NCBI GenBank assembly: GCA_049322915.1
Contig: JBMOPW010000014.1
Coordinates: 573,527-637,526, forward strand
DNA from: Candidatus Zhuqueibacterota bacterium
GTDB taxonomy: Bacteria > Zhuqueibacterota > Zhuqueibacteria > Thermofontimicrobiales > Thermofontimicrobiaceae
DNA length: 64,000 nt
Reading direction: 5' to 3'
Part shown: one piece after another, positions 49 to 14,505 of the stretch
Layout: each line of letters opens with the position of its first letter
How positions within the stretch are numbered: the first letter of the stretch is position 1
Position numbers and translations under genes: made by a program
Notes under the pieces: generated by a model
What the model saw: only the letters and a program-made list of their open reading frames with translations
What the model was told of the DNA's origin: nothing
Databases searched by the model: none

Positions 49-3000
49 ATGATTGAAATTGCCGGTTTTATAGGTAAAATATTATCTGAAAAGGCGCTCG
101 AAAAATTGTTGAACAACATTTTTAATGGCAACAAATCCGCGCTGCAAAAAGCGTATGAAAAGGCGTTTGAAAATACAGTTAATTATTACGAGTATAATTA
201 CCGCAACAAGTATGGTGCAAAGAATAACCGCTTTTTTAACTACCAGTCCGCGGAAGAAGAACTGATTAAACTCACCTTTGTCCGCCAAAATCCTGACCCG
301 GACATGCTGGCGCAGATTGAGTGGGAGCATGGTGTAACAACTCCCCCAAAAATTATTTTAGATTTTGTGAACTACCTGCGTTATCAGATGTCCCAATTCA
401 GGGAATGCGAGGACATTCTCGTGGAAAAGGATAAATATCAATCGTTGATGAATATTGATAAAAATACAGATGGAATTGCCCGAAATATTAAAGAGCTCAC
501 CAACCATTTTGTAAAAAAAGAACCCGAAGAAGATACCAGGCCGCTCCACTGGAAACACCTTTACAACGCCTTTAAAGACCGGAAGCTGCATGAAGTCTCC
601 ATAAAACATGTTGGCGGTGGTTTGTTGGGACCGGAAACCCTCCCGCTGGAAGATGTATTTTTTGTGCAGGATGCAGGTTTTCGATGGCTGGGAATTGGAA
701 TGAAATCTGCCAAAGTGCAGAAGAAAGAAAACAAAAACAGTGAACTGTTCGATGAGCTGACTGTTTGCGAAGGACATGTTTGGCGAGCGCTGCAGGAGCT
801 GCAAATAAATACAAGCCATATAAGAAAAATTATGGATGGAATCGATAAAGAAAAAATTTTAAAAATTGCCGCCGAGTTTGCAGTAAAATATAATAAACAT
901 TCAACGGTTTTCGGCAATCAGCATTTTCAGCAAATTGTTGATCAATTGGCCCAACGATTTGAGTTGACTTCTTCTCACATCATTGCCGCGTTGAGTCTTT
1001 ATTTTACAGAAACGATTAAACGCGAGCCAGTCCTTGATTTGCTGAAACCGCCCTGTTCCGCATTTGTTATCGGGGACGCCGGCGTGGGAAAAACAACGGT
1101 GATGCGAAGGCTGGCTCTGAATTTATTCCATCGACTGGAAAACGGCGAAGAAAATGTACCGCTGCCTTTATTTGTCAGGCTTGACAAGATCGAGGATTAT
1201 ATAAAAGAAAAACAGAGCATCCATCAAGGGAAAAAAGCGTTGCTGCAATATATCGCTGACCATTGGAAATCGCATGTCAGTCATGAATCCGACATTTCAG
1301 CGTCTGCCATTGAACAATGCGAATTACCCCTGCAAATAATGCTGGATGGGTTGGATGAAATCCCATCCGCCAATATCCGGGAAAAATTAATCCTCGTCAT
1401 TCGCGATCTTGTTCAGGGACAAACGTGCAATATTATTATCACCTCCAGGCCGACTGCCGTGGATACGGCGTTAATTAAAACTTCTGAATTAAATGAGATT
1501 CGCCTGCTGGAATTAACATCCAAACAAACAAATGAATTTGTGAACAAATTTTTTGAAATATACAATTGTCCGAAATCAGGCAAAGCCGACAGCGCCAAAT
1601 TCAAATCTGCGTTAGAGCTTTCCGACGCGGCCATGCTGTTTGCCGGCAATCCGCTTTACCTGACCGTGATGATTTTAATGCACAAGAAAAATGAGGTGCT
1701 GCCCAAAAAAAGGTTGGAACTGTATGCGGAATTTTACCAGATGTTGCTGTTGCAGCGTTCGACCGGGCAATTCAAAGGCAAACTGGCAGACAGGCCTGCG
1801 CTGCGCATTCAGGATGAAAAAATTATTCACTGGGGCGAGGCCGTTTATACGCCTCTGCTGCAATGGATCGCTTACCTCACCCACAGCAATGACGCAGACA
1901 GCGTTAGCATCGAGAAACAATATGTGATTGACGCGATTAAAAAGGAAGATTTGCAGCAGGAGTTAAAACTGATCAGCCTGGAAAATCTGGCAGAACGATT
2001 CATTAATTTTGCCGATGAAGAGCTGGGATTGCTGGTCTCGCGGGGACAGTTTTACGGATTCAGCCATCGGTCGCTGCAGGAATTTTTAGCGGCCATGCAT
2101 CTGGCTGATTATCAGAAAGAACCATCCATTGAACAGTTTTGGACGGACCAGGCGCTGAAAAAACCGGATCGCTGGATGGAAGTGGCCCGGCTGCTGTTCT
2201 GCAAAATTCTGGATAAAAAATTTTTCGCGACCTGGGTGCGGGATATAAACGATACAAAAGATCCCCGCGTGATCCGGTTAATTCAATCCATTATTTTCGA
2301 TCTGGAAGAGTTCTTTCCCGGGGGCGGCGGCATTCAGTCGCAGAAGGAAAGTGTGCAAAAAGCGCTTGTTTCCCGGCGGGATAAATCCCACGGCTCACCG
2401 GACATGTTCCTCGCCTGCTCCGATGCACTTGGTTCCATGGATGTTCCGCCAATTTCCATTGCCGATCCGCCTGTGGTAAAATTGGTGGCACGGGAGCCGT
2501 TCACCATGGGGATTAATTATTTCGATGATGATACGAAACCTGAATTTAAGGCAACTTTGTCACCCTATTACATGGGGCAATACCCGGTCACCAATAAGGA
2601 ATTTGCCGAATTTATCAACGATGGCGGGTACACCGAGGAAAAATATTGGCGCAGCAGTCATGAAATGTTTACTTTTGATGGAAAAAAAATTTTAGAGGAT
2701 TTAAAAAATAAAACTCCTGAGTATTGGGATGACGAACGATTTGGCAAAAAACGTCCCCTGGTCCCTGTCGTGGGCGTGAGCTGGTACGAGGCCATGGCGT
2801 ATTGTTTATGGTGGAATGAAAAATATGGCGCGGCATGGGCAGAAAGTCATGGTCGTAAAAAAATACTGGTGCGCCTGCCCACCGAAGCGGAATGGGAATT
2901 TGCTGCGCGTGGCTATTCAGGCAGAAAATATGCCTGGGGCGATGAAAATATTGAAACGGACAGGTGTAATTTTTCTTCCTCCAACTTAGACAGAACCTCG

Positions 3001-3300
3001 ACTGTCGGCAGCTATCCCCGGGGCAAAACGCCGGACGTCGATCTGTACGACTTGAGCGGCAATGTCTGGGAATGGTGCATCGATTGGTACAATGAGAAAT
3101 TTTATGCGGAGTGCAAAAGACAGGGTGTCGTGGAAAATCCTGTATGCGCCAGTAAAGGTTCGTACCGCGTGATGCGCGGCGGTAGCTGGGACTTCACTGC
3201 TGACTACTGCCGATCGGCGAATCGTAGCAGGGGCCGTCCTGGAAGGCGTAACAGCCTTGTTGGCTTCCGCCTGGTGTTCGTCCCGCAGTCAGTTGTGTAG
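49..3300 (+). CDS. NACHT NTPase + C-terminal FGE-sulfatase/SUMF1 (C-type lectin fold) protein; DGR target 1
   Basis: Walker A GDAGVGKTT, Walker B LDGLDE, IITSRP, GNPLYL, FSHRSLQEFLAA; C-terminal FGE motifs VTNKEF, RLPTEAEWEFAARG, DLSGNVWEW, RGGSW, GFRLV; RBS 'aggag' upstream. Confidence 0.92.
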   Translation: MIEIAGFIGKILSEKALEKLLNNIFNGNKSALQKAYEKAFENTVNYYEYNYRNKYGAKNNRFFNYQSAEEELIKLTFVRQNPDPDMLAQIEWEHGVTTPPKIILDFVNYLRYQMSQFRECEDILVEKDKYQSLMNIDKNTDGIARNIKELTNHFVKKEPEEDTRPLHWKHLYNAFKDRKLHEVSIKHVGGGLLGPETLPLEDVFFVQDAGFRWLGIGMKSAKVQKKENKNSELFDELTVCEGHVWRALQELQINTSHIRKIMDGIDKEKILKIAAEFAVKYNKHSTVFGNQHFQQIVDQLAQRFELTSSHIIAALSLYFTETIKREPVLDLLKPPCSAFVIGDAGVGKTTVMRRLALNLFHRLENGEENVPLPLFVRLDKIEDYIKEKQSIHQGKKALLQYIADHWKSHVSHESDISASAIEQCELPLQIMLDGLDEIPSANIREKLILVIRDLVQGQTCNIIITSRPTAVDTALIKTSELNEIRLLELTSKQTNEFVNKFFEIYNCPKSGKADSAKFKSALELSDAAMLFAGNPLYLTVMILMHKKNEVLPKKRLELYAEFYQMLLLQRSTGQFKGKLADRPALRIQDEKIIHWGEAVYTPLLQWIAYLTHSNDADSVSIEKQYVIDAIKKEDLQQELKLISLENLAERFINFADEELGLLVSRGQFYGFSHRSLQEFLAAMHLADYQKEPSIEQFWTDQALKKPDRWMEVARLLFCKILDKKFFATWVRDINDTKDPRVIRLIQSIIFDLEEFFPGGGGIQSQKESVQKALVSRRDKSHGSPDMFLACSDALGSMDVPPISIADPPVVKLVAREPFTMGINYFDDDTKPEFKATLSPYYMGQYPVTNKEFAEFINDGGYTEEKYWRSSHEMFTFDGKKILEDLKNKTPEYWDDERFGKKRPLVPVVGVSWYEAMAYCLWWNEKYGAAWAESHGRKKILVRLPTEAEWEFAARGYSGRKYAWGDENIETDRCNFSSSNLDRTSTVGSYPRGKTPDVDLYDLSGNVWEWCIDWYNEKFYAECKRQGVVENPVCASKGSYRVMRGGSWDFTADYCRSANRSRGRPGRRNSLVGFRLVFVPQSVV
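3157..3288 (+). repeat. DGR variable repeat VR1
   Basis: 132-nt ungapped match to TR 3601-3732 with 15 mismatches, all at TR adenines. Confidence 0.96.
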
Positions 3301-3401
3301 TTATTCAATTTTCCTGTGAGCAAAACGAGCTGTTTGAACGGAGTGAACGAGGCGGCGAGGGACGAGCCGCCGAGAGAGTGGAGTGAAAACAGCGAGTTGG
3401 G
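3289..3401 (+). promoter_or_regulatory. Post-VR1 IMH/hairpin target-recognition region
   Basis: Near-identical to 6019-6131 after VR2 and absent after the TR; stems gctgttt(3329-3335)/aaacagc(3387-3393) and ggcggc(3351-3356)/gccgcc(3366-3371). Confidence 0.75.
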
Positions 3402-3456
3402 GGGGATGTATAAAATTAGTGAAAATACATTATAAATAGGCTGATTAGATTGAAAC

Positions 3457-3543
3457 CTGTCATTGCGAGGAACGTTTTTTGTGACGAAGCAATCCCCTTG
3501 GGCACAGTAGATTGCTTCGACAAAAACCGTCTCGCAATGACAG
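3457..3543. repeat. Palindromic REP/MITE-like element
   Basis: Terminal IR ctgtcattgcgag/ctcgcaatgacag plus inner IR cgaagcaatc/gattgcttcg. Confidence 0.8.
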
Positions 3544-3600
3544 TATCCTAGAAAGATTTAGATGTACTATGCCAATATATTGAAATGGGCATCAATCGCA

Positions 3601-3732
3601 GGTTCGAACCGCGTGATGCGCGGCGGTAGCTGGAACAACACTGCTGACAACTGCCGATCAGCGAATCGTAACAGGAACAATCCTGAAAGGCGTAACAACA
3701 ATGTTGGCTTCCGCCTGGTGTTCGTCCCGCAG
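3601..3732 (+). ncRNA. DGR template repeat (TR)
   Basis: Intergenic AAC/AAT-rich copy of the two gene 3' ends (11 AAY triplets, 33 adenines); all differences to both VRs are at its adenines. Confidence 0.95.
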
Positions 3733-3860
3733 CTCACAGGAAAGTTGGATGACTACCTCTGAACAGATTGCTGTCCCACTCGCTGAAAGGCGATAAATAA
3801 CGAAACAGAATACACAGCGCTGGTAGGGCAAATGGATGTTTGTTTCGAAGGCGCTGTGTG
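3733..3860 (+). ncRNA. Structured 3' spacer of DGR RNA (putative)
   Basis: Directly follows TR; stem acacagcgc(3812-3820)/gcgctgtgt(3851-3859) and small hairpin tcgc-tgaaag-gcga. Confidence 0.55.
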
Positions 3861-3900
3861 TTTGATAATTGGATTGTTTTCAAGAGGAAAGGTTATACAA

Positions 3901-6030
3901 ATGGTTGAGATTTTTAAGCCCATTATTGATCTGTTAACAAACCCTTTATCTCATTTATTTAAAACTCTCGGATTCGGTGACAAGGCGGCAAATGCCTTTG
4001 CAGCGGTTTTGCTTGCATTAATTTTCTATCTTATCATTATCTTATTGAAAGATCAATTTCGAAGGTTTAAAAATAGGCGCAGCGCCAGAGATTTAAAACC
4101 CGAATTTGATTATAAGACAATTAAAGGCTTTCGTGAAATTTTTATTCCCTCAAGATATGATCGGATTTCTCCCAATAGGTATGATAATCCCCATGAGGCG
4201 CATAAGCATAGTGAACCCCGTAAGCTTATTCCATTTATGTTAAAAAAGTCATTTAACGAACGGGTTGAAAATGAAAAGTTTTATTTAATTCTTGGAGACT
4301 CCGGGATGGGGAAGACCGCATTTATGGTCAATTTGTATATAAAATTTCATTCAGTTTTCAGATTCAACCGGAATCATAAAATGAAATTATTTCGTTTCCA
4401 GCCGCCGGATATAGATGATCCCGAAGACGTAATTGAGAGAATAAAAAAGATAGATCGCGAGGAAGCAAAAAATACAATTTTATTATTAGATGGATTAGAC
4501 GAAGACCCTTATATTTTATCCAAAGATCCGAAAGTCACCGATGACGCTGCTTTTGAGAAGAGATTAAATAATATCGCCAGCAGCACTAAAAATTTTTGTG
4601 ATGTTGTTATCACCTGCCGTACACAATATTTTCCACAGGAAGAGTTGCAGGATTATGTCCTTAGTATTCGAAAACCTGATGGCGGATTTTTTAAATTAAA
4701 TAAATATTACTTGTTTCCCTTTTCTGATAAAGAAGTTAAAAAGTATTTAAGAAAAAAATATGGAGTGCTCAGATTTTGGAACCGGCCAAAAAAGAAAAAA
4801 GCGAAATTGTTAGTTGAGAATTCTCATAAATTAATGTCCAGACCGATGTTGCTCTCGTATCTGGATGATTTAGTTGTTGAGGAGGATGTTAAATATAGAA
4901 ATTGTTATCAAATTTATGAAACGCTGATTGAAAAGTGGATTGACCGGGAAAGTAAAAAATGTAAAAAACCAAATGAACAGGAGAAATTTAAAAAAAATTT
5001 AAGAAAGCTGGCGCACGAAACTGCGCTGGATATGTACGCGAAATGGCAATCCGAGGGTGTGTTGTTTCTTAAAAAAGAGGATACCGATAACCTGGCAAAT
5101 AAGTATAATATTGAATTAAAACCTGAAGAGGTTAAAGGCAAGTCCTTGCTCACCTGCGATCCGTTGCGAAACTGGAAATTCGCCCATAAATCCATTCTTG
5201 AATATTTTCTGGCAATAGAATGTTTTAATAAATTGGAGTTTGCAGTAAACTTCAATTTCACCGGTATGGACATGGTGAAACATTTTTATGAAGAGATGCA
5301 GCCCTTTATTAATGCAACCGATTTTGTCAAAGTGGAATTTGGTGTTTTTAAAATGGGTGATGAGTATGGCGATCTAGGCTCTAGTGAAAAACCGGTGCAT
5401 GATGTAAAAATTTCCGATTTTTATATGAGTAAAACTTTAGTGACGCAAAAATTCTAGAACGATATTATGGGAAGCAATCCATCACATTTTAAGAATGGAG
5501 GAGAATACCCGGTTGAACAAGTGAACTGGGATGATGTTCAGGAATTTATTGAAAAGTTACACCAAAAAACAGGCATGAAGTTTCGTTTGCCCACAGAGGC
5601 TGAATGGGAATATGCAGCCCGCGGCGGCCACAAAGCCCCGGTAAAAGATGGCGTGCATGTTGGGAAATTCAGGTATGCCGGCAGCGATAACCTGGATGAA
5701 GTGGGTTGGTATGAAGGAAATTCAGATAAAAAAACTCACCCGGTTGCCGGTAAAAAACCGAATGAACTGGGGCTGTACGACATGAGCGGCAATGTGTGGG
5801 AGTGGTGTCTGGACTGGTATGATGAAAAATATTATAAAGAATGTCAGAAACAGGGTGTTGTGGAAAATCCTGAGTGCACCAGGGAAGGTTCGTACCGCGT
5901 GATGCGCGGCGGTAGCTGGAACAACACTGCTGACTACTGCCGATCAGCGTATCGTCGCGGGGGCAATCCTGTTAGGCGTTTCGACTTTGTTGGCTTCCGC
6001 CTGGTGTTCGTCCCGCAGTCAGTTGTGTAG
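3901..6030 (+). pseudogene. Membrane-anchored NACHT + FGE-sulfatase protein, DGR target 2, interrupted by in-frame TAG at 5455-5457
   Basis: N-terminal TM helix, GDSGMGKT, LLDGLDE, VITCRT, FAHKSILEYFLA; ORFs 3832-5457 and 5467-6030 are in the same frame and separated only by one TAG (VTQKF*NDIMGSNPS); likely start ATG 3901 after 'agaggaaagg'. Confidence 0.85.
5887..6018 (+). repeat. DGR variable repeat VR2
   Basis: 132-nt ungapped match to TR with 15 mismatches, all at TR adenines. Confidence 0.96.
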
Positions 6031-6131
6031 TTATTCAATTTTCCTGTGAGCAAAACGAGCTGTTTGAACGGAGTGAACGAGGCGGCGAGGGACGAGCCGC
6101 TGAGAGAATGGAGAGAGAACAGCGAGTTGGG
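6019..6131 (+). promoter_or_regulatory. Post-VR2 IMH/hairpin target-recognition region
   Basis: Copy of 3289-3401 with few substitutions. Confidence 0.75.
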
Positions 6132-6203
6132 TTTGCGGCGTATTGATAGAATTAAATCTATTTTTGGTCTATGCACGTGCGCGTAATGTTAGTCGTTGAA
6201 ACG

Positions 6204-6857
6204 AGCCCCAACGGGGCGAGATACTTTAGCTCAGGGCAACGCCCTGAGTAGATGGTAATTAACACGAACAAATCACCACAACACCCATCAACAAACCGAG
6301 GGTGCCATCACCCAAACAGGAGAGAAAGGAGGAATGATGCCACAAAGCCTGTCCAAAGTATACATTCATTTAGTGTTCAGCACAAAAAATCAAAAAGAAA
6401 TTATCGATCCTGACATTGAAAAAGAGTTGTATCCCTACATGGCGGCGCTATTTCGTGAAAGCGATTCACCGGCGATTATTATAAATGGTGTATCGAATCA
6501 TGTGCATAATTTATTTTTACTCTCCCGGAAATTTGCAATCAGCCAGGTTGTTGAAAACGTAAAAAAGAAATCATCAAAATGGATAAAAACAAAGGGTGAG
6601 CGGTATAAATCATTCTATTGGCAAAACGGATACGGGACTTTTTCAATCAGTCGCACGCATGTTGATGTGGTGAAAAAATATATTTTAAACCAGAAATCGC
6701 ATCATGCACAGACCTCGTTTCAGGGCGAATACCGGAAACTCCTTAATAAATACAATATCGAATATGATGAGCGATATGTTTGGGATTAGGGCGTTTATTG
6801 AGTTCCGTGGTCATCAGGGCGTTGCCCCGGGTTGGGATAAGTCGCTCCGTTGGAGCT
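6204..6857 (+). mobile_element. IS200/RAYT element with inverted REP-like palindromic flanks
   Basis: 6204-6246 (agccccaacggggc...cagggcaacgccctg) is an imperfect inverted copy of 6815-6857 (cagggcgttgcccc...gctccgttggagct). Confidence 0.7.
6334..6789 (+). CDS. tnpA: IS200/IS605-family (RAYT-like) Y1 HUH transposase
   Basis: YIHLVFSTK, HUH motif NHVH, WQNGYGTFS, YILNQ, ends YVWD. Confidence 0.9.
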   Translation: MMPQSLSKVYIHLVFSTKNQKEIIDPDIEKELYPYMAALFRESDSPAIIINGVSNHVHNLFLLSRKFAISQVVENVKKKSSKWIKTKGERYKSFYWQNGYGTFSISRTHVDVVKKYILNQKSHHAQTSFQGEYRKLLNKYNIEYDERYVWD

Positions 6858-6967
6858 AAAATTCAGAAAATTCCACCGCAAGGTTTTTTCCCTGGTATCG
6901 TCAAAACAAGTAGTCGTTCTAATCATGAATTAATTCAGACCAACCACAGGAAATTTTTTTAACGTGC

Positions 6968-7619: not shown

Positions 7620-7785
7620 AGCCTGCATTATTCATAGTATTTTTAAAGGAGGCTGGCTAACCTGAATGGTGCTCTTTTTAGAATAAACGTATAAAAACTG
7701 AGTTTCAAAATAGCTTAGCCTTTAGCTAATTGAAAATCTAAATGTTGACTCAAATTCTGAGCAAGTTCATGAATAATTCAGGTTA
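7620..7785. mobile_element. 166-bp MITE copy 1
   Basis: 3 mismatches to 47203-47368; imperfect terminal IRs agcctgcattattcat / atgaataattcaggtt. Confidence 0.8.
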
Positions 7786-7993
7786 GACGCAACTCTGGAA
7801 AATTCGGACATCCTTCCTTGCTCCCCTTCAAAGGGGGGATGCGGTCAACTTTAGCTATTGGCTTTCATTGACAAGTAGCGATTGAACGTTGACAATTGAC
7901 TATTTCTTTTTTCCTTTCAATGGCGAATTGCAAAGGGAGAATTGTCAATTGTGAATGAGGAATTGATGTTACTATAATATTTTACTATTATTT

Positions 7994-8073
7994 ATATGAA
8001 TGACCAGTTAAAATTTTGGCGCCTATATCATTATTGGGCATTCGCGTAGTGGACGGTCGCGACTGTCCACTAC
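7994..8073 (+). repeat. 80-bp repeat ending in GTAG-type REP hairpin, copy 1
   Basis: Similar to 34669-34748; hairpin gtagtggac...gtccactac. Confidence 0.7.
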
Positions 8074-8165
8074 ATATACAAAAGTGGATCGAATTTATTG
8101 CACATGCTTTCAACTGGTCCTTCATATTATTCATATAACCACATCTTTTTCGAAGAGGGATAAAG

Positions 8166-8474
8166 ATGAACCGAAAACAAAAAATCGAACAGGAAATTGA
8201 AAAAACGCTCGGGCAATTTGAGCGGGCGGAACGGCTGCCGTCCAATCCTTATTTCCACACCCGGGTTCAGGCGCGACTCAATGAGACGCCGGAGCCGAGC
8301 GGGGTGTTAAAACCGATATTCCTCGCAGTCCTGCTCACGCTGAATATCCTGACGGCCGTTTACTTCATTGGCGGAGGAACCTCGCAGTCGACGGCCCGCA
8401 GCGATTTGCTGAGCGAATTTGCCCAGGAAATTGGTCTTGAAGAAAGCGAAACTGAATTCATCAATATTCAATAA
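8166..8474 (+). CDS. Putative single-TM anti-sigma-like protein
   Basis: NPYFHTRVQARL followed by TM helix; downstream of ECF sigma. Confidence 0.65.
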   Translation: MNRKQKIEQEIEKTLGQFERAERLPSNPYFHTRVQARLNETPEPSGVLKPIFLAVLLTLNILTAVYFIGGGTSQSTARSDLLSEFAQEIGLEESETEFINIQ

Positions 8475-8483
8475 GGTGCGACG

Positions 8484-9029
8484 ATGGATATTTTTACAAA
8501 AAACAGACTTACCATAATCACCATTATTTTGCTGGTCATTTTCAACCTGATTACGCTGGCCATTATTTGGAGTGAAAAAATTCGCCCATCGGGGAGACCA
8601 CTTGCGCAGCATCCGATTGAGCAGCGTATCAGGACAGTCATGTTCCTGAAAAATGAACTGGGGCTGAAGCCGGACCAGGTTCGGGAATATCGCACGCTTC
8701 GCTCGCAGTACCGGGAGCGGATGAGAACAAACAGCGAAGAGATCAGGATGTTAAAAAAGGAATTGCTCAACCAGTTATTTCAGGATAAAATAGACAGCCT
8801 GGAGGTGGAGCGAATCATCGGTCGCATTGGTGATAAGCAGGAGCATATCGAGCGACTCACATTGGGCCATTTCCATCAGTTGAAAAAATTATGCGGCAAT
8901 GACCAGCAGCAGAAGCTGCATCGACTGCTGGGTGAATTGTTTCGTCCGCCGGATCGTCCGCCTGAAATCGACGAGGACATGCCCCGGCCGCAACATCCCG
9001 ATGTTCGGCCCCCTCGGGAGGAATACTGA
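8484..9029 (+). CDS. Periplasmic heavy-metal sensor / Spy-CpxP-like protein
   Basis: N-terminal TM/signal, helical region ELGLKPDQ...QQQKL; typical ECF/anti-sigma context. Confidence 0.7.
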   Translation: MDIFTKNRLTIITIILLVIFNLITLAIIWSEKIRPSGRPLAQHPIEQRIRTVMFLKNELGLKPDQVREYRTLRSQYRERMRTNSEEIRMLKKELLNQLFQDKIDSLEVERIIGRIGDKQEHIERLTLGHFHQLKKLCGNDQQQKLHRLLGELFRPPDRPPEIDEDMPRPQHPDVRPPREEY

Positions 9030-9261
9030 CAGATAAATATAGAAATTTTTGGGCGAACGCCCTGACGATTTAGGATTAACTCTCCTCTCCGCCATACATG
9101 GCGGAGTTATTCATTAACTTTGACTGGCTCCGTTCTTTGGAACGGAGATTTTCATAATTCACCTGGAGTTATTAGGCTTTAGCCCGGATGATACATCAAT
9201 TTTTTTTGCTGGTCATTCCTATTATTAACAAATCACAGGAGTCATCGAATAAATTGGAGCA

Positions 9262-10125
9262 ATGTCCATGAAAAAACAAATGCTGATAGGTTGCATCCTC
9301 TGGGGGCTGTCCAGCCTGTTAGGATGTCGCGAAACTAAACTGGAGAACCAGTGGGTGGCGGAGGAAGTGATCGTTGATGGAAAAGACGATGAATGGAAAG
9401 GAGGCTCGCTCACGTACGCCGAAGCGATGAATTTGGCGCTGGGGACGGCGAACGATGCGCATCATCTGTACGTGATGTTTCGATTGAATGATCCCGATAT
9501 GGCGCGGAAAATACAGATGATGGGAGTGACGGTCTGGCTGGATGCGGAAGGAGGCAAGGAAAAAACGTACGGCATGGTCTACCGCGGCAGTGTCGAGATG
9601 CAGCGTGATCTGGCGCCAAAAGACCAGTTCGATGCCAGGGAAGAAAATGCCGGCACAGGAAGAAGGAGACCCATGATGGAGCGATTCGGCGCGGACTTGC
9701 CGGAGTTTGGAAAGATTCGCATGATTGAAAGAAGCGACAAAAGGGATTTGTCAGCCAATAACCCGGACGGCCCGGCCGCCGGATCCGCGTTGAGCAATGG
9801 ATATTATACATTCGAGTTTCGGCTGCCGCTTCCTGTCTCGGTGACAGGCGATGATAAAATGAATTTGTGCCTGGAATTGGGCGGAATGAGCAATGAAGAA
9901 AAGGCTAAAATGAGAGAAGCAATGCCTGGCGGCGGAAGAGAAGATGGGCCGCCGGAAGGTGGTCGACCCGGTGGCGGAATGGGCGGCCGGCCCGGCGGAA
10001 TGGACGGTGGTCAGGGAGGCATGCGAGGCGGCGGCCGACCCGGGGGCATGACGCAACCAGGCCAGGGACTGGAAAAACAGGAATTGTGGTTTGCGATTCA
10101 ACTCGCTGCTCAAAGTAAGGAGTAG
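9262..10125 (+). CDS. Hypothetical lipoprotein with Gly-rich low-complexity tail
   Basis: Lipobox LLGC; GGRPGG repeats. Confidence 0.75.
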   Translation: MSMKKQMLIGCILWGLSSLLGCRETKLENQWVAEEVIVDGKDDEWKGGSLTYAEAMNLALGTANDAHHLYVMFRLNDPDMARKIQMMGVTVWLDAEGGKEKTYGMVYRGSVEMQRDLAPKDQFDAREENAGTGRRRPMMERFGADLPEFGKIRMIERSDKRDLSANNPDGPAAGSALSNGYYTFEFRLPLPVSVTGDDKMNLCLELGGMSNEEKAKMREAMPGGGREDGPPEGGRPGGGMGGRPGGMDGGQGGMRGGGRPGGMTQPGQGLEKQELWFAIQLAAQSKE

Positions 10126-10366
10126 CATTTCGATGCGATCAATTTACTCTCCTGCGCGATTACACAGGGCTAATCCCTGCGGTGGAATGAATGGAGATTC
10201 GCGATGATGTCATTGAATTTGGCTGACAAAGGTTTTGTCGCGCATGGAATGGCTGTGCCGGAAGGCGAACATATACCGACAATAGAATAAATCACCTTCG
10301 AGAGAAAATAGCCGGGGAGAAAGGAAAGCCGGCAGGACAGGATTTTTCAGTTTTTAATTTCAGAAG

Positions 10367-10400
10367 AGCCCCTGAGGACGTGAGCGCCAAAGGGGCTTTT
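10367..10400. terminator. Putative intrinsic terminator between convergent genes
   Basis: agcccct...aggggct + tttt. Confidence 0.5.
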
Positions 10401-10411
10401 GTATTATTGAA

Positions 10412-12004
10412 TTACTGAGTCGCTTTCAATGACTCAAATTTTATAAAGCCTTCCGGATTTTGCGCCTTCCCGTCCTGCCTGATTTCGAAATGAAGATGCG
10501 GGCCGGTCGATTTTCCGGTTTTGCCGACGCGGCCGATCAACTCACCGGCTGCCACATGACGCCCCATGTCAACCAGCACTTCGTCCAGATGTGAATAAAA
10601 CGTTTCGAACCCATTTTCATGCTGAATGATGATGTATTTTCCGTTGCCACTGGCTTCGTTCTTGTCATCCGAAATGGCGCGAGTCACTGTGCCCGAGGCA
10701 GCGGCTGTGACTTCGGTACCGATTGGAGCCGCCACATCGACGCCATTGTGGAACGCTTCCTTTTTCGTGAACGGGTTGATCCATTTCCCATACGGAGCCG
10801 TGAGTTTGCCCACCTGTATTGGAAGGATGAAAGGCGGATTTTCTTTCTGGACAGGCGTAGCAGATTGTCCTGCCGCTATTGCGCCATCCGGGAGAATTTC
10901 AGGATTCTGTATGAACGCACCGGCCATAGGCAGCAGAAAAATCCCGACCAGAATAAATGTGCTGTATAAAAGTAACGATTGGTATTTTCCCATAAACGAG
11001 TCTCCTCTTAAATTGTTAATCCGGTAAACTAATTTTTTCCGTTGGCTGCCAAATCCCGGCAGCACCTTTATCTCTTCAGCGCTAAAAAGATTCAATTTTA
11101 AAATGGCCATAATCCCGTTGCCATAATGTGAGCGGGAAATTTTCTTCTTCGCCAGAACCCGGCTGTCGCAATCGCATTCGCGGGACAGGCTGATTTGGCT
11201 ATTGAGGAACCAGACCATTGGATTAAAAAAATAAGCGATTTGCAAAAGGCTGAACAGCCTCATCCACAAATTATCCCACCGCTGGATGTGAGCCATTTCG
11301 TGGGCGATAATTGGTTCGACTAAAAAATAATTCCGCGATTCAATGGCCTTTTTCGGGATGAAAATGACCGGGCTCCAAATGCCTGATGTAAAAGGCGACA
11401 AATAGTGTTCGGAACAAACCAGTTTGACTTTTCGCCGGATGCCGAAAAGGGTGCTCCATTTATCAACTAATTCTAAAATACCGGCGCTTCGAACCGGGAA
11501 CGACTGTCTCACAGTGGTTTGAAAACTCTGGAGTTTTCTGAGGTAGATGATCAGCAAAACCATAGCCCCGAAACACCAGGCCAGAAACAGGAGGGCTAAA
11601 AGCGCATTGTGTTTTGAAATCTCCAAAGAAGGGATTACAGTCGACGCATTCGAAGCAATGTCGCCTTCGTCTCTGTTACCATTCCACAAGTCGCCGGAAT
11701 AATCGATTCCCTGTTTATCGTCCTGTCCGAAAAAGTCGAACCAGTGAACCAGCCGCTCAAAAACCGGCATGTGGCCTAGCAAATTCCACGAGCTGAGCGG
11801 GTGCGACAGGTTCGGCGGCAGGATGAGGCGGATTAAAATTAAAAGCCACAATGCATATCGCCAGCGCGGTGATTGAATTTTGAAGATTTTAATCAGCATC
11901 CAGACTAGGAAAAAGACAATGCCGGCGTAAATCGAGTTTTGCCAGAAAAATGGAATGACCGCTTTCCCGGTTTGAATGAAGTGGTGTATAATTTCGATGA
12001 TCAT
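10412..12004 (-). CDS. BlaR1/MecR1-like M56 metallopeptidase fused to M23 peptidase
   Basis: M56 HEMAH..RWD and RECDCD; M23 HNGVD, YSHL, STGPHLHFEIR. Confidence 0.92.
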   Translation of the reverse strand: MIIEIIHHFIQTGKAVIPFFWQNSIYAGIVFFLVWMLIKIFKIQSPRWRYALWLLILIRLILPPNLSHPLSSWNLLGHMPVFERLVHWFDFFGQDDKQGIDYSGDLWNGNRDEGDIASNASTVIPSLEISKHNALLALLFLAWCFGAMVLLIIYLRKLQSFQTTVRQSFPVRSAGILELVDKWSTLFGIRRKVKLVCSEHYLSPFTSGIWSPVIFIPKKAIESRNYFLVEPIIAHEMAHIQRWDNLWMRLFSLLQIAYFFNPMVWFLNSQISLSRECDCDSRVLAKKKISRSHYGNGIMAILKLNLFSAEEIKVLPGFGSQRKKLVYRINNLRGDSFMGKYQSLLLYSTFILVGIFLLPMAGAFIQNPEILPDGAIAAGQSATPVQKENPPFILPIQVGKLTAPYGKWINPFTKKEAFHNGVDVAAPIGTEVTAAASGTVTRAISDDKNEASGNGKYIIIQHENGFETFYSHLDEVLVDMGRHVAAGELIGRVGKTGKSTGPHLHFEIRQDGKAQNPEGFIKFESLKATQ

Positions 12005-12396
12005 TTTTTTCCTTCGTCAGCGTTCTGCAAAACCAGGGCGTGCAACTCTTCGATTTCTTCGGGTGTAAGGGCTTTGCTTCTGGCAAACAGCGAAACGACC
12101 GAGCCGACGTCCATTTCCAGCACACGGTCGGCAAAAAACTGAACCATGCGCGCCAACCCTGCCGGACGGGAGATGAGCGGCGTGTATAAAAATACCCCAT
12201 GAAAATTCTCGCGGGCCAGAAGGTTCTTTGCGACCAATCGGTCCATCATTGTTTTTGTGGTGGTATAGGCCCAGTCGTAGGTAGCTGAGAGGTGTTGATG
12301 CACTTCACGGACACTGAGCCGTCCCGATTTCCAGAGCACGCGCAGAATATCGTATTCGGCGCGCGATAAATCGATCAGGGTGTTGGAGGATTCCAT
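12001..12396 (-). CDS. BlaI/MecI/CopY family repressor
   Basis: LSRAEYDILRVLW, WAYTTTKTMMDRL; overlaps M56 gene by 4 nt. Confidence 0.93.
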   Translation of the reverse strand: MESSNTLIDLSRAEYDILRVLWKSGRLSVREVHQHLSATYDWAYTTTKTMMDRLVAKNLLARENFHGVFLYTPLISRPAGLARMVQFFADRVLEMDVGSVVSLFARSKALTPEEIEELHALVLQNADEGKK

Positions 12397-12432
12397 GCGT
12401 TATTCCGTTATACTGTTAATGGATAATTGAAT

Positions 12433-12447
12433 TACTACAATGTAGTA
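12433..12447. promoter_or_regulatory. Putative BlaI-type operator palindrome
   Basis: TACTACA-a-TGTAGTA perfect inverted repeat between promoter and repressor start. Confidence 0.7.
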
Positions 12448-12456
12448 GTGCTGTGT

Positions 12457-12485
12457 AATATAAATAACGCTGTGGAAAAAGTCAA
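12457..12485 (-). promoter_or_regulatory. sigma70 promoter of repressor-M56 operon
   Basis: TTGACT-N17-TATATT on minus strand. Confidence 0.65.
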
Positions 12486-12750
12486 GAGGTTTTTTGAAAA
12501 AATGTTGTTGAAAAAAATGGGAAATGAGAAGGTACGGGATGCTATTTCAGTCCTGACGTTTTGAACGATTAAAGACCGCGCGCCAGCCTCCTCGTTCCAT
12601 TTGGTGCTATTGGAACGAGGAGAGGTTGAGAACGAGATGCAACCAAAGCTGTTCAGGCCCGGTGCGCACAACCCAGCGAAATTCACGTCGCCATGGAATC
12701 GATCGTGCGCGTGGGGTGAGGCTATCGCTGCGCGAGACTAACAATCTCCA

Positions 12751-14505
12751 TCATTGAATCCTGAAAGAGTAGGGCATCATGGGCCAGATGAATACGCGCT
12801 GTTTGTTCAAAAATGACTGCACTGCGCTGCCGAGGTTGCCCTGGTTCAGGCCGCTTTGAACCAGCCCAAACGGATCGGATAGCAGCCTATCGATGAGGCT
12901 TTTTTGCGTTTCATAAACGACGACTTTGATGCTCGCGCTGGTGTCGATCTGAGCCTTTTCCCGGGCGATTTCGATGGCCCTGTCCAATCCGCCAAGTTCA
13001 TCGATCAATCCGAATTGCTTCGCTTGAGTCCCCATCCACGAGCGGCCCTGGGTGTACGGCTCCAGTTCTTCATAGGCTTTGCCGCGGGACGCTGCCGCTT
13101 TGGAGACAAATTCATGATAGGTGCTTTGAATGTAGTCCCGATACAGTTCTTTTTCATGCGAGGACATTTTTTTGGTGAACAGCATCATGTCCGCATATTG
13201 CCCACGCTTGACATTCTCTTCGACGAGTCCCAGTTTATCGTACAATCCGCTCAGATCCGGGAAAATTCCCCAGATACCAATGGACCCGGTGAGCGTGGTC
13301 GGCTGGGCGACAATGGCAGTGGCGCCCATGGAAATCCAGTAACCACCGGAGGCGGCGTAATCGGACATGGAGACAATGACCGGTTTGATTTTTTTCGCCT
13401 CGAGAATTTCCCGCCAGACCAGGTCGCAGCCCAGGCCGCTGCCGCCGGGGGAGTCGACCCGGAAAATGATCGCTTTAACCGATTTGCTCTTTGCCGCGCG
13501 GCGAATGGCCTGAATGATGGGAGTAGTGCCGGCGGATTGTTCCATGGACAGCAGGCTAACCGTGTCATCTCCTTCCTGAACAATGCCCTGCGAATAGATT
13601 AAAGCGATGCGGTCTTTGCCCTTATTGAGCCCTAATGATTCCATGGTGATGTCGGAATAGGTCTCCGAGGTGATCTGGTTGAGTTGTCGATGAAGTCCTT
13701 CGTGATTCAGTTGTTTCAATCGCTCGAATAGCTGGTCTTCGTACAAAATGCCGGTAAGCCAACCCAGCTCTCTGAATTTCTCGGCGCGAATGTACCCTTT
13801 ATCGATCACTGCGGTGACTTCGGATGGGGAGATATTCCATCGCGTTGCAATGCCGTTCACCAGGGTGTTGTATTCCTGATCCAGAAGATCGTTCAACATC
13901 TCCAGCACCGGCTCGGTGTGTTTCTTGCGACCGTAGGTCTCCCCTGAATGGGACTTGTATTTCCCAAAAGCGAAATACTCCAGTGAAATGCCGAGTTTTT
14001 CAAACAGCCCCGGCAAATGTACTGTTTCAATCACCAGACCATTCATTTCCAAAAATCCGCCGGGCACAGCAAAGACGCTGTCTGCTGCCAGCGCGGTGTA
14101 ATACTCCTTTTCGGACACATACGAACCCAGATAGGCGATGACATATTTTCCCGAGGACTTGAAATCGATGAGCTTTTGTCGGATCTCTTCGACCTTGGCC
14201 CAACCCATGAGGTTAGCGTTGATTTTCAAAAGGATCCCTTTGATGCGGCGATCAGCTTTGGCTTTTTCGATGTTGTCCAGAATATCCTTCATGTTTGTAG
14301 CCTTGCTGATATGCAACGGAAAGTCCGATGCGGCAGTGTGCTCCGGAATGGCGCCGGCCAGCGTGATGACCAGAGTGGAATTACCTTCGACGACGGGTTC
14401 GGTATCAGATAGGCCGCGTACAATGAGAAACAGGCCCAAAAAAGATAGTATCGCCAGGACGAGCAGTGTCAGCAAGACATACAAAATGACGTGAATGGGT
14501 TTCAT
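12751..14505 (-). CDS. sppA: Signal peptide peptidase SppA (67K type)
   Basis: Two S49 domains; RVDSPGG, AASGGYW, TLTGSIG. Confidence 0.93.
   Translation of the reverse strand: MKPIHVILYVLLTLLVLAILSFLGLFLIVRGLSDTEPVVEGNSTLVITLAGAIPEHTAASDFPLHISKATNMKDILDNIEKAKADRRIKGILLKINANLMGWAKVEEIRQKLIDFKSSGKYVIAYLGSYVSEKEYYTALAADSVFAVPGGFLEMNGLVIETVHLPGLFEKLGISLEYFAFGKYKSHSGETYGRKKHTEPVLEMLNDLLDQEYNTLVNGIATRWNISPSEVTAVIDKGYIRAEKFRELGWLTGILYEDQLFERLKQLNHEGLHRQLNQITSETYSDITMESLGLNKGKDRIALIYSQGIVQEGDDTVSLLSMEQSAGTTPIIQAIRRAAKSKSVKAIIFRVDSPGGSGLGCDLVWREILEAKKIKPVIVSMSDYAASGGYWISMGATAIVAQPTTLTGSIGIWGIFPDLSGLYDKLGLVEENVKRGQYADMMLFTKKMSSHEKELYRDYIQSTYHEFVSKAAASRGKAYEELEPYTQGRSWMGTQAKQFGLIDELGGLDRAIEIAREKAQIDTSASIKVVVYETQKSLIDRLLSDPFGLVQSGLNQGNLGSAVQSFLNKQRVFIWPMMPYSFRIQ

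What the first reader, a model, noticed from the sequence alone, without database searches (positions are those of the whole stretch)
49..6131. Diversity-generating retroelement hypermutating two NACHT-FGE (NLR-like) genes
Seen: the TR at 3601-3732 aligns without gaps to the 3' ends of two genes (3157-3288 and 5887-6018). Each VR has 15 mismatches, and all 30 fall on TR adenines, mostly in AAC/AAT triplets (e.g. TR NRNRNNPERRNNNV, VR1 NRSRGRPGRRNSLV, VR2 YRRGGNPVRRFDFV). Established: adenine-specific TR-to-VR mutagenesis in a C-type-lectin/FGE fold is the DGR hallmark, and NACHT is the STAND NTPase of NLR-type immune receptors. Inference: one TR diversifies the ligand-binding sensors of two different bacterial NLR-like receptors, one soluble and one with an N-terminal TM helix. 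This would be a hypervariable pattern-recognition system.
Basis: partly seen in the sequence, partly recalled or inferred. Interest (0 to 1): 0.9.

Follow-up and report, generated by a model that had tools for sequence, protein, structure and literature searches.

The report
Orphaned retroelement cassette with NLR-like targets
This is a genuine diversity-generating retroelement template with two immune-receptor-like target genes, but this genome has lost the reverse transcriptase that drives it and one target is broken, so it is probably a recently silenced copy of a kind of system already described.

Summary
TR 3601-3732 aligns without gaps to VR1 3157-3288 and VR2 5887-6018. There are 15 + 15 mismatches, and all 30 lie at TR adenines.

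- Target 1 (49-3300) is an intact NACHT-FGE protein.
- Target 2 (3832-6030) is a TM-STAND-FGE gene cut by an in-frame TAG at 5455-5457, where orthologues have Trp.
- No reverse transcriptase or accessory gene accompanies the cassette.

In 5 of 10 related genomes, an HRDC accessory gene and a cognate RT sit next to the same TR. In this window those positions hold a MITE-like hairpin and an IS200 element. The whole assembly has only one DGR-type RT. It belongs to a separate Avd-type DGR on another contig, is 38% identical to the cognate RTs, and has an unrelated spacer.

The cis elements are intact, so the RT loss is recent or the RT is supplied from elsewhere.

DGR diversification of NACHT-lectin sensors, incomplete loci and trans action are already in print (Doré 2024).

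A side result may be new. In this RT clade, the first ~30 nt after the TR are the reverse complement of the first ~32 nt after each VR, and the two covary (61 of 74 pairs).

The parts
49..3300 (+). Target gene 1, 1083 aa. It has an N-terminal helical region of unknown family (1-330), a NACHT NTPase (339-503) and an FGE/C-type-lectin-fold domain (817-1076). The frame is intact.
   Evidence: ORF. Pfam: NACHT 54.9 bits, FGE-sulfatase 172.4 bits. No Pfam hit for residues 1-334. No TM segment.
3157..3288 (+). VR1, the variable repeat at the 3' end of gene 1.
   Evidence: 15 of 15 mismatches to the TR lie at TR adenines.
3289..3400 (+). Conserved 3' flank of VR1. The first 32 nt (3289-3320) are the reverse complement of the TR spacer 3733-3762. 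A hairpin at 3351-3371 has the conserved loop GAGGGACGA.
   Evidence: Duplex -40.8 kcal/mol against -16.1 +/- 3.7 for shuffles. 82-83% identity to VR flanks in relatives. Fold.
3398..3580 (.). A 183-nt stretch that stands where relatives carry the HRDC accessory gene and the RT (about 1.7 kb). It contains a MITE-like hairpin at 3457-3545.
   Evidence: BLAST boundaries against L016. Gene order in L016, L017 and L054. Hairpin -30.9 kcal/mol, with copies on 6 contigs of the genome and in relatives.
3587..3597 (+). 5' half of a long-range duplex that brackets the TR in the RNA. It pairs with 3766-3777.
   Evidence: 11 pairs, 92.6% of cells paired across 11 loci, 3 pairs changed on both sides.
3601..3732 (+). 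TR, the template repeat. It has 33 adenines and 11 AAY codons in the frame of the VRs. ORF 3562-3762 is the TR read as protein, not a gene.
   Evidence: It is the only copy in the assembly.
3733..3777 (+). Spacer RNA elements. A fold-back hairpin at 3733-3762 pairs UCA 3734-3736 with UGA 3760-3762. The next 10 bases (consensus TGAACAGATTG from 3760) are invariant at 9 positions. The 3' half of the TR-bracketing duplex is at 3766-3777. A3762 is the inferred priming nucleotide.
   Evidence: Alignment of 11 loci. RNAalifold. Pair counts. The priming site is an inference by analogy with BPP-1 Sp A56.
3832..6030 (+). Target gene 2. It has an N-terminal TM helix (residues 54-72), a STAND NTPase (nSTAND3/NACHT-like) and an FGE domain. 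An in-frame TAG at 5455-5457 interrupts it, so it is a pseudogene or a split gene.
   Evidence: The three aligned proteins have W or Y at the TAG position: W in L017 and L019, Y in L016 target B. No CUA tRNA. The TAG is also present in a contig of run X1.
5887..6018 (+). VR2, the variable repeat at the 3' end of gene 2.
   Evidence: 15 of 15 mismatches to the TR lie at TR adenines.
6019..6131 (+). Conserved 3' flank of VR2. It is identical to the VR1 flank for 82 nt. Its first 32 nt are complementary to the TR spacer.
6132..6967 (+). IS200-family element (Y1 transposase 6334-6789) placed directly after the VR2 flank. This is the other position at which relatives carry HRDC + RT.
   Evidence: Pfam Y1_Tnp 85.7 bits. 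Single copy in the genome, with subterminal hairpins. In L018 and L052 the HRDC + RT follow the VR flank. In L052 an IS200-like transposase lies between the HRDC and RT remnants.

Best explanation
The region is a cassette of a diversity-generating retroelement of the HRDC-accessory type. It holds one template repeat with its spacer RNA elements and two target genes whose C-terminal lectin-fold codons were overwritten by adenine-mutagenised cDNA copied from that template. The targets are STAND/NACHT NTPases with an FGE-fold sensor, that is, NLR-like proteins: one cytosolic and one membrane-anchored.

In this genome the cassette is orphaned. The HRDC gene and the cognate reverse transcriptase flank the TR in relatives but are missing here. 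A MITE-like hairpin and an IS200 element occupy their two usual positions. Target 2 has also acquired a nonsense codon. The cassette therefore most likely no longer diversifies.

The loss is recent. The VRs carry no non-adenine differences from the TR, and every cis element is intact: the TR-bracketing duplex, the spacer hairpin and the VR flanks.

Shown: the A-only TR/VR relation, the domain content, the TAG, the absence of a cognate RT and HRDC from the assembly, and synteny with RT-bearing relatives.

Inferred: past retrohoming into both VRs, present inactivity, and a sensor role for the targets.

Inferred mechanism for the clade: the spacer hairpin primes cDNA synthesis at the TR's 3' end and stays attached to the cDNA. 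Being complementary to the sense strand just downstream of each VR, it guides the RNA-cDNA molecule to its target.
For: TR/VR relation. 30 of 30 mismatches lie at TR adenines and the repeats are in frame. The two genes are otherwise diverged, at about 40-60% nt identity over most of the FGE domain. They match the TR perfectly at all 99 non-A positions, so both were rewritten after they diverged.

Domains..

No RT or accessory gene.
- PF00078 finds only C16:9990-10634 and C34:430973-431578 in the 6.25-Mb, 96.3%-complete assembly.
- The C34 protein is a TOTE RT-TPR-primase.
- A profile of 5 cognate RTs scores 218 bits on C16 and 97 bits on C34. It scores 654-663 bits on the cognate RTs of G010, G015 and G030.
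- tblastn with 3 cognate RTs and 3 HRDC proteins finds no orthologue.
- HRDC domains occur only inside 718-aa and 313-aa frames on C4.

The C16 RT belongs to another element. That locus is a complete Avd-TR-RT DGR with its own FGE target. Its TR flanks are unrelated, and its spacer and VR flank are not complementary.

Synteny. 10 related genomes with the same TR spacer were examined. 5 have HRDC + RT beside it (L016, L017, L018, L053, L054) and 1 has remnants split by an IS200-like gene (L052).

Nonsense codon..

Intact cis elements..

Reads. In run X1 each VR is a single contig at a depth like its flanks (68.6 and 93 against 60-78). No alternative letters are listed inside either VR. These are contigs, which drop rare variants.
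Against: - Zero non-adenine differences in 2 x 99 positions, together with intact spacer elements, is what an active element would also show.
- The RT-less relatives L051, L052 and L055 have already gathered non-A mismatches: 11/14, 14/18, 18/34, 16/18 and 19/29 at A. The window has none.
- A DGR RT and Avd exist on C16 and might act in trans. Doré 2024 reports trans action between loci.
- The assembly is a 45-contig genome estimated 96% complete. An RT on a missing piece, or in a structural variant within the population, cannot be excluded. X1 contigs give no cover for 3344-3454.
- L050 (G108) shows 21 of 21 A-only mismatches with no RT found in that genome. A-only purity therefore does not date the loss.
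Confidence: 0.65

Rival explanations
1. The cassette is active and is served in trans by the Avd-type DGR on contig C16. That RT and Avd would reverse-transcribe the C14 TR RNA, and the cDNA would home to VR1 and VR2.
For: C16 encodes an intact RT (357 aa), an Avd (NF033474, 108.6 bits) and its own TR/VR pair with 15 of 16 mismatches at A. The window's VRs are free of non-A changes and its cis elements are intact. Trans action between DGR loci has been proposed in Thiohalocapsa (PMC10907252).
Against: The C16 RT is only 38% identical to the cognate RTs. Its accessory protein is Avd, not HRDC. Its spacer shares no similarity with the window's spacer, and the only TR similarity (73%) is within the FGE-coding core. 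In BPP-1 the RT-Avd complex depends on specific spacer structure (passages). In the published trans cases the remote VRs match the TR of the RT-bearing locus. Here the TR itself is foreign to the RT.
Confidence: 0.12
2. The cognate HRDC + RT still exists in the organism or its population but is not in this assembly. It could lie on an unassembled contig or in a structural variant of this locus, as reported for two Thiohalocapsa DGR loci.
For: The assembly is estimated 96.3% complete in 45 contigs. Repeats of this kind break assemblies: many relatives' TRs lie at contig ends. X1 holds 0.91 of the sampled words, and its contigs give no depth over 3344-3454, next to the presumed deletion. Doré 2024 found intact-RT variants by long reads.
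Against: The cassette lies inside a 1.09-Mb contig. Both positions used by relatives are filled with other sequence. No fragment of a cognate RT or HRDC gene is on any of the 45 contigs. In every RT-bearing relative examined, the RT lies no more than about 650 nt from the TR or the VR flank.
Confidence: 0.12
3. One reading: a complete, working DGR that currently hypermutates two intact NLR-like receptors.
For: The TR/VR pattern and the domain content are as described.
Against: There is no RT or accessory gene in the locus or a cognate one in the genome. Target 2 is interrupted by TAG. No alternative VR sequences appear in X1 contigs, which is weak evidence.
Confidence: 0.08
4. It is not a retroelement product. 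The three repeats would be paralogous gene ends kept alike by gene conversion, and the adenine pattern would be chance.
For: VR1 and VR2 share 82 identical nt beyond the TR homology, so some conversion or duplication between the two gene ends is likely.
Against: The hypergeometric chance is 4.8e-11 per VR. The same A-only pattern recurs in relatives that carry the RT: 18/18, 18/18, 20/20, 14/14 and 25/26.
Confidence: 0.01

Closest known systems
DGRs of multicellular bacteria that diversify NACHT/STAND-CLec 'antigen sensor' candidates (Thiohalocapsa PB-PSB1, e.g. locus DGR 3; Doré et al. 2024, PMC10907252; passages read)
   Same: The targets have a central NACHT NTPase fused to a DGR-diversified C-terminal lectin-fold domain, in duplicated pairs. 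Some targets carry TM segments. Loci are incomplete or RT-less. Transposons and MITE-like repeats reshape the loci. Trans action has been discussed.
   Different: Here no TR-matched RT exists anywhere in the assembly. One target is nonsense-mutated. The accessory gene of the clade is HRDC; the word HRDC does not occur in that paper. Population-level diversification was shown there and could not be tested here.
Bordetella phage BPP-1 DGR (prototype; Guo 2011 PMC3240598, Naorem 2017 PMC5703328, Handa bioRxiv 10.1101/2023.10.23.563531; passages read)
   Same: Adenine-specific TR-to-VR transfer into a lectin-fold C-terminus. Spacer RNA after the TR with a fold-back that can place an adenosine beside the TR's 3' end. 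A duplex between sequences upstream and downstream of the TR. An element downstream of the VR is needed for targeting.
   Different: The accessory protein is Avd, not HRDC. In BPP-1, VR and TR differ in IMH/IMH* and the VR is followed by a GC-rich hairpin whose structure matters but not its stem sequence. Here the TR and VR ends are identical, and the VR flank is the reverse complement of the spacer hairpin, with covariation. The BPP-1 target is a phage tail fibre, not a STAND NTPase.
HRDC-containing DGRs ('architecture C', e.g. Treponema denticola; Wu et al. 2018, PMC5758913; passages read)
   Same: Relatives of the window's cassette carry a 153-157-aa HRDC protein just upstream of the RT (Pfam HRDC 52.7 and 50.7 bits). 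Gene orders vary and there are several targets.
   Different: Wu et al. counted HRDC in 14 of 372 DGRs, and about half of those also had avd. The relatives examined here have HRDC without avd in the locus. The window itself has neither.
Bacterial antiviral STAND/NACHT proteins (Avs, bNACHT; named from memory and from the discussion in PMC10907252)
   Same: Tripartite layout of N-terminal region, STAND NTPase and variable C-terminal sensor. Walker A and B motifs are visible in both proteins.
   Different: No PADLOC model matches either target. NCBIfam gives only a weak partial match to EruA (29.8 bits against a cut-off of 1000). No N-terminal effector domain could be recognised. The sensor is an FGE/lectin fold, not TPR-like repeats.

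Membership tests
Diversity-generating retroelement (DGR) | Template/variable repeat pair whose differences fall at template adenines | tested here: met
   15 of 15 and 15 of 15 mismatches at TR adenines; 4.8e-11 per VR.
Diversity-generating retroelement (DGR) | DGR-clade reverse transcriptase in the cassette | tested here: not met
   There is none in the window. The genome has one DGR-type RT, on C16, inside another complete DGR. It is 38% identical to the cognate RTs of relatives.
Diversity-generating retroelement (DGR) | Accessory gene (Avd, HRDC or other) beside the TR/RT | tested here: not met
   No ORF of 60 aa or more lies between 3300 and 3562. No HRDC accessory orthologue is in the genome. 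Avd is found only on C16.
Diversity-generating retroelement (DGR) | VR at the C-terminal end of a C-type-lectin/FGE-fold (or Ig) target | tested here: met
   FGE-sulfatase 172.4 bits (gene 1) and 136.3 bits (gene 2, C-terminal part). Each VR ends 12 nt before the stop codon.
Diversity-generating retroelement (DGR) | Cis elements for cDNA synthesis and targeting (spacer RNA structure; a VR-specific 3' element) | tested here: met
   The spacer is conserved at 74-88% in other genomes of the class. Hairpin and TR-bracketing duplex: 95% of cells paired. The VR flank is conserved and complementary to the spacer.
Diversity-generating retroelement (DGR) | Ongoing diversification of the VR in a population | tested here: inconclusive
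   Only Logan contigs were available. In X1 there is one VR sequence each, at flank-like depth. Contigs drop rare variants.
NLR-like / bacterial NACHT (STAND) immune receptor | Central STAND NTPase of the NACHT type | tested here: met
   Gene 1: NACHT 54.9 bits (cut-off 26.7). Gene 2: nSTAND3 29.4 bits (cut-off 27.2), NACHT 24.7 bits, below its cut-off.
NLR-like / bacterial NACHT (STAND) immune receptor | C-terminal sensor domain | tested here: met
   The FGE/lectin-fold domain carries the VR. Its sensor role is inferred, not tested.
NLR-like / bacterial NACHT (STAND) immune receptor | N-terminal effector or adaptor domain | tested here: inconclusive
   Gene 1 residues 1-330 have no Pfam family and only 26 representatives among 1.84 billion proteins. 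The AF2 model is all-helical at pLDDT 65.8, with no Foldseek match at E <= 0.001. The Atlas gives a lead to NACHT N-terminal helical domains at 0.89, below its own reliability mark.
NLR-like / bacterial NACHT (STAND) immune receptor | Protection against phage or another invader | not testable with these tools
   There is no PADLOC match. A bench assay is needed.

The most novel reading that the evidence does not exclude
In the RT clade to which this cassette belongs, the target site appears to be specified by base pairing with the primer RNA and not by an IMH/IMH* difference.

The ~30-nt spacer hairpin that follows the TR is the reverse complement of the ~32 nt that follow every VR, and the two covary from genome to genome. 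The bottom strand of the VR locus is therefore collinear, to the nucleotide, with a 'spacer RNA - cDNA' chimera primed at the adenosine at window 3762.

This would mean one of two things. Either the RNA handle left on the cDNA guides retrohoming by pairing with the sense strand downstream of the VR, or the handle is itself copied into the target at each round.

Naorem et al. 2017 proposed primer-IMH pairing for BPP-1 from one element. This would be the first comparative (covariation) support for it, in a distant HRDC-type clade. It would make the unsolved homing step directly testable by compensatory mutation.

I found no statement of this relation in four literature searches or in the passages read from seven papers. 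It may nevertheless be in print.
Probability: 0.4. Interest if true: 0.75.

Novelty: new member of a known kind. Interest (0 to 1): 0.5.

Why it matters
As a DGR acting on NLR-like sensors, this adds one more, degraded, example to a class already described.

Its value lies in two things.

1. Persistence without the enzyme. TR/VR cassettes of this clade often outlive their reverse transcriptase. Among 10 related genomes, 4 lack a cognate RT and 1 has it disrupted, besides this genome. A-only repeat patterns alone therefore should not be scored as active DGRs in surveys.

2. The homing step. The family gives a clear, sequence-level handle on how the cDNA finds its target, which the 2024-2026 literature still calls poorly understood. 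The spacer and the VR flank are mutually complementary and covary. Compensatory mutagenesis in a reconstituted system can test this.

Tried and rejected
- Window scan. No RT or Avd ORF lies between or near the repeats.
- C34 RT. It is a TOTE-system RT-TPR-primase fusion, not a DGR RT.
- Avd fragment. A 34-aa Avd-like tblastn hit on C18 (E 1.3e-4) was not followed. No RT is on that contig.
- Cyanobacterial origin. I guessed this from the MITE-like hairpin. It is rejected because no PsaA/PsaB was found, while the control hit Synechococcus.
- N-terminal domain of gene 1. Pfam gave nothing. The Atlas gave a lead only. The AF2 model had pLDDT 65.8 and pTM 0.37. The best Foldseek PDB E-value was 0.42, all spurious helical matches. 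No conclusion.
- PADLOC. No model matches either target.
- Read-level test of VR variation. Only Logan contigs were on offer for 4 runs. X2-X4 hold only conserved FGE pieces and MITE copies from other organisms. X1 shows one sequence per VR. This cannot show absence of rare variants. The hole at 3344-3454 proves nothing.
- RNAalifold on the spacer alone gave little covariation (4 of 31 pairs). The hand-drawn long-range duplex fared better, but it was derived from the same sequences.
- Promoter scan of 3250-3900: 0 sigma-70-like sites. This is uninformative for this organism.
- The search of earlier findings returned nothing.
- No complex prediction was run.


Full report
OBSERVATION

TR 3601-3732, VR1 3157-3288 and VR2 5887-6018 align over 132 columns without gaps. 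Each VR differs from the TR at 15 positions, and all 30 have A in the TR. The TR has 33 A in 132 nt, so the hypergeometric chance is 4.8e-11 per VR.

The TR is in frame with both genes. It has 8 AAC and 3 AAT codons, and 30 of its 33 adenines sit at codon positions 1 or 2. No stop codon can arise from the AAY codons. Identity between TR and VRs ends abruptly on both sides.

The two genes are otherwise well diverged, at about 40-60% nucleotide identity over most of the FGE domain. Both nevertheless equal the TR at all 99 non-A positions. Both VRs were therefore overwritten from this TR after the genes diverged.

THE GENES

Gene 1 (49-3300, 1083 aa) has a NACHT domain (residues 339-503, 54.9 bits) and an FGE-sulfatase domain (817-1076, 172.4 bits).

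Its first 330 residues match no Pfam family. They have only 26 representatives among 1.84 billion proteins, and the long ones reach about 1000-1100 aa, like gene 1. The five relatives found all carry precomputed NACHT and FGE domains. AlphaFold with a 21-row alignment gave an all-helical model at pLDDT 65.8. Foldseek found no match at E <= 0.001. An Atlas lead to 'NACHT N-terminal helical' clusters scored 0.89, below the tool's own mark of reliability.

The second target is not one open frame. Frames 3832-5457 and 5467-6030 are in the same phase and are separated by TAG at 5455-5457. At that position the orthologues in L017 and L019 have Trp, and L016 target B has Tyr.

The genome has 47 tRNAs. 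None has a CUA anticodon. TAG ends 206 of 1089 long frames counted on the first 20 contigs. A contig of run X1 covers 3703-5914 with no differences. It may come from the same data as the assembly, so this is not independent support.

Read through, the protein has a strong N-terminal TM helix (residues 54-72, mean hydropathy 2.79) followed by a run of basic residues. Then come a STAND NTPase (nSTAND3 29.4 bits, above its cut-off; NACHT 24.7 bits, below) and the FGE domain. Gene 1 has no such hydrophobic segment. No PADLOC model matches either protein.

WHAT IS MISSING

No RT or accessory gene lies in the interval or anywhere in the window. The window is C14:573527-637526 of a 6.25-Mb assembly of 45 contigs, estimated 96.3% complete.

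- PF00078 finds two places in the assembly.
- The one on C34 is a 982-aa RT-TPR-primase of a TOTE conflict system.
- The one on C16 is part of a complete, canonical DGR. It has an FGE target with a VR, an Avd (NF033474, 108.6 bits), a TR with 15 of 16 mismatches at A, and an RT.
- That element's TR resembles the window's TR only in the FGE-coding core (73% over 92 nt). Its flanks are unrelated.

RELATIVES SHOW WHAT STOOD HERE

The TR and its 3' spacer are conserved at 74-88% in other genomes of the same class. The tally of 17 of 125 genomes includes two unpublished genomes, G116 and G120, which I did not use.

I examined the 10 published genomes that have a full-length spacer match.

- Five carry a 152-157-aa HRDC protein (Pfam HRDC 52.7 and 50.7 bits for the two scanned) and an RT of about 330 aa right beside the TR. 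The order is either target(VR)-HRDC-RT-TR-target(VR) (L016, L017, L054; L053 is partial) or TR-target(VR)-HRDC-RT (L018).
- In L052 an IS200-like transposase lies between an HRDC remnant (residues 1-82) and an RT remnant (residues 243-324).
- Four have no RT in the locus (L019, L050, L051, L055). Whole-genome searches find no RT at all in G108 and G076. They find only RTs of about 40% identity in G075 and G035.

In the window, homology to L016 runs through the VR1 flank to about 3397 and resumes at about 3580. The 183 nt between replace about 1.7 kb of HRDC + RT and contain a MITE-like hairpin (3457-3545) that has copies on six contigs. The other usual position, directly after the VR2 flank, holds a single-copy IS200 element.

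Three cognate RTs, three HRDC proteins and a profile of five RTs find nothing cognate in the assembly. The profile gives 218 bits on C16, against 654-663 bits on true cognates.

IS IT STILL ACTIVE?

Evidence for recent or continuing activity:
- There are no non-A mismatches.
- Every cis element is intact.

Evidence against:
- There is no cognate enzyme.
- One target is broken.

RT-bearing relatives show pure patterns: 18/18, 18/18, 20/20, 14/14 and 25/26 at A. Three RT-less or RT-disrupted ones show decay: 11/14, 14/18, 18/34, 16/18 and 19/29. G108, however, has 21/21 with no RT found. Purity therefore does not prove activity.

Only Logan contigs were available for reads. In X1 each VR is one contig (3160-3286 at depth 68.6; 5905-6016 at depth 93), beside flanks at depth 60-78. 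No alternative letters are listed in the VRs. This is a weak hint of clonality, no more.

I put the odds at about 65% on an orphaned, presently silent cassette. Trans action by C16 and an unassembled or variant RT get about 12% each.

HOW THE FAMILY WORKS: CIS ELEMENTS

Across 11 loci the TR is bracketed by a long-range duplex, window 3587-3597 with 3766-3777. It has 11 pairs, 92.6% of cells are paired, and 3 pairs changed on both sides. This resembles the upstream/downstream duplex described for BPP-1 and other DGRs in the Handa preprint. I drew this structure from the same sequences that I counted it on, which flatters it.

Directly after the TR comes a hairpin (3733-3762). Its closing pairs UCA/UGA are invariant. 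The next 10 bases (consensus TGAACAGATTG from 3760) are invariant at 9 positions.

The most striking feature is the relation between spacer and VR flank. These ~30 nt are the reverse complement of the first ~32 nt after each VR.

- In the window the duplex is -40.8 kcal/mol, against -16.1 +/- 3.7 for shuffles.
- In seven genomes the aligned cells are 239 Watson-Crick, 41 G-U and 38 mismatched. Nine columns show two or more different Watson-Crick pairs.
- Of 80 loci found with the RT profile in public genomes, 75 are 2.5 kb or longer and 55 hold a TR/VR pair. 61 of 74 pairs (44 of 55 loci) have z <= -4.
- The median is -40.1 kcal/mol. The same-orientation control gives -15.05 and non-cognate pairs give -20.5. 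There are 40 distinct spacer sequences.
- The loci carry record titles such as Saprospiraceae, Chlorobiaceae, Paludibacter, Cytophagia, KSB1, Caldithrix and Verrucomicrobia.
- L050 and L052 keep only about 11 nt of complementarity. The C16 Avd-type DGR has none.

The geometry is exact. The bottom strand of the VR locus reads 5'-[spacer-like 30 nt ending CTGA]-[complement of the VR]-3'. This is collinear with a molecule made of spacer RNA up to A3762 joined to cDNA that starts opposite the last TR base. If the hairpin pairing is taken literally, the fit is off by one nucleotide.

For BPP-1, Naorem et al. 2017 showed a covalent RNA-cDNA molecule primed at spacer A56. They proposed that the RNA primer pairs with the VR's IMH and so sets direction. 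Guo et al. 2011 found that the stem sequence of BPP-1's VR hairpin does not matter. Wu et al. 2018 noted that where IMH equals IMH*, recognition must extend downstream.

I infer that in this clade the spacer handle on the cDNA recognises the VR flank by pairing, or is itself co-copied into it at each round of homing. This is inference from covariation only. I did not find it stated in four searches or in the passages I read. It may still be in print.

COMPARISON WITH WHAT IS KNOWN

For all papers I read passages by term search only. For Vallota-Eastman 2020 I saw only the search listing.

- Doré et al. 2024 describe a DGR lineage in multicellular bacteria whose targets include duplicated NACHT-CLec proteins. 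They describe incomplete loci, likely trans action, and remodelling by transposons and MITEs. They propose the targets as antigen sensors.
- Kaur et al. 2020 link DGR-diversified FGS domains to NTPase conflict systems.

The membership tests give a split result. For DGR, the repeat pattern, the target fold and the cis elements are met, while the RT and the accessory gene are not met in this genome. For NLR-like receptors, the NTPase and the sensor are met, the effector is unresolved, and function cannot be tested with these tools.

VERDICT

- Observation: confirmed.
- Interpretation: partly supported.
- Novelty: a new member of a known kind.
- Interest: moderate. It is raised by the recurrent persistence of RT-less cassettes and by the spacer/VR-flank covariation, which bears on the unsolved homing step.

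Noticed in passing
L004 (G000:C16) 7981-10856: A second, complete DGR of the Avd type: an FGE-only target (321 aa, VR 8800-8936), Avd 9124-9477, TR 9482-9618 and RT 9783-10856. 15 of 16 mismatches lie at TR adenines. A Ser/Thr kinase and a HEAT-repeat protein lie upstream, and a GrpE-like protein and an Hsp70 lie downstream.
   Followed up: partly
L005 (G000:C34) 3838-6786, minus strand: A 982-aa protein that joins an RT (RVT_1), TPR repeats, a TOTE-type archaeo-eukaryotic primase domain and a Mu Gam-like domain. It is a TOTE conflict-system gene, unrelated to the DGR.
   Followed up: partly
window 3733-3762 with 3289-3320 and 6019-6050; loci L068-L147: The spacer start after the TR is the reverse complement of the VR 3' flank, with covariation across the whole RT clade (61 of 74 pairs at z <= -4). 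I did not find this in the literature searched.
   Followed up: yes
window 3457-3545: A 90-nt near-perfect hairpin (-30.9 kcal/mol as DNA). Copies at 74-91% identity lie on six contigs of the genome and in many genomes of the class. It is probably a MITE and sits where HRDC + RT would be.
   Followed up: partly
L052 (G109:C357) 12416-13674: An IS200-like transposase, 53% identical to the window's, lies between the remnants of the HRDC gene and the RT of a related cassette. This would be a second, independent loss of the enzyme linked to this IS family.
   Followed up: partly
window 3320-3400 and 6050-6131: The VR flanks continue as a conserved purine-rich stretch with repeated ACGAG-like motifs. 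A small hairpin (3351-3371) has an invariant loop, GAGGGACGA, and its stem differs among relatives. Function unknown.
   Followed up: no
window 3022-3370 against 5752-6100: Identity between the two target genes rises from about 40-60% to 73-90% some 135 nt upstream of the VR, and to 100% for 82 nt downstream. This suggests conversion or co-transfer beyond the TR-homologous part.
   Followed up: partly
L050 (G108:C2) 9804-12306: A related cassette with 21 of 21 A-only mismatches, in a genome where no RT of any kind was found with the RT profile (91% complete, 8 contigs).
   Followed up: partly
L004 1-553 and 7744-8097: Seventeen tandem copies of a 21-nt unit lie at the contig start. A perfect 127-nt direct repeat (7744-7870 and 7971-8097) lies at the junction of the HEAT-repeat gene and the C16 DGR target.
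   Followed up: no
window 3344-3454: This stretch has no cover in the contigs of run X1, which otherwise holds 0.91 of the sampled words. It lies next to the presumed deletion of HRDC + RT. It may be a filtering artefact or a real difference in the population.
   Followed up: no
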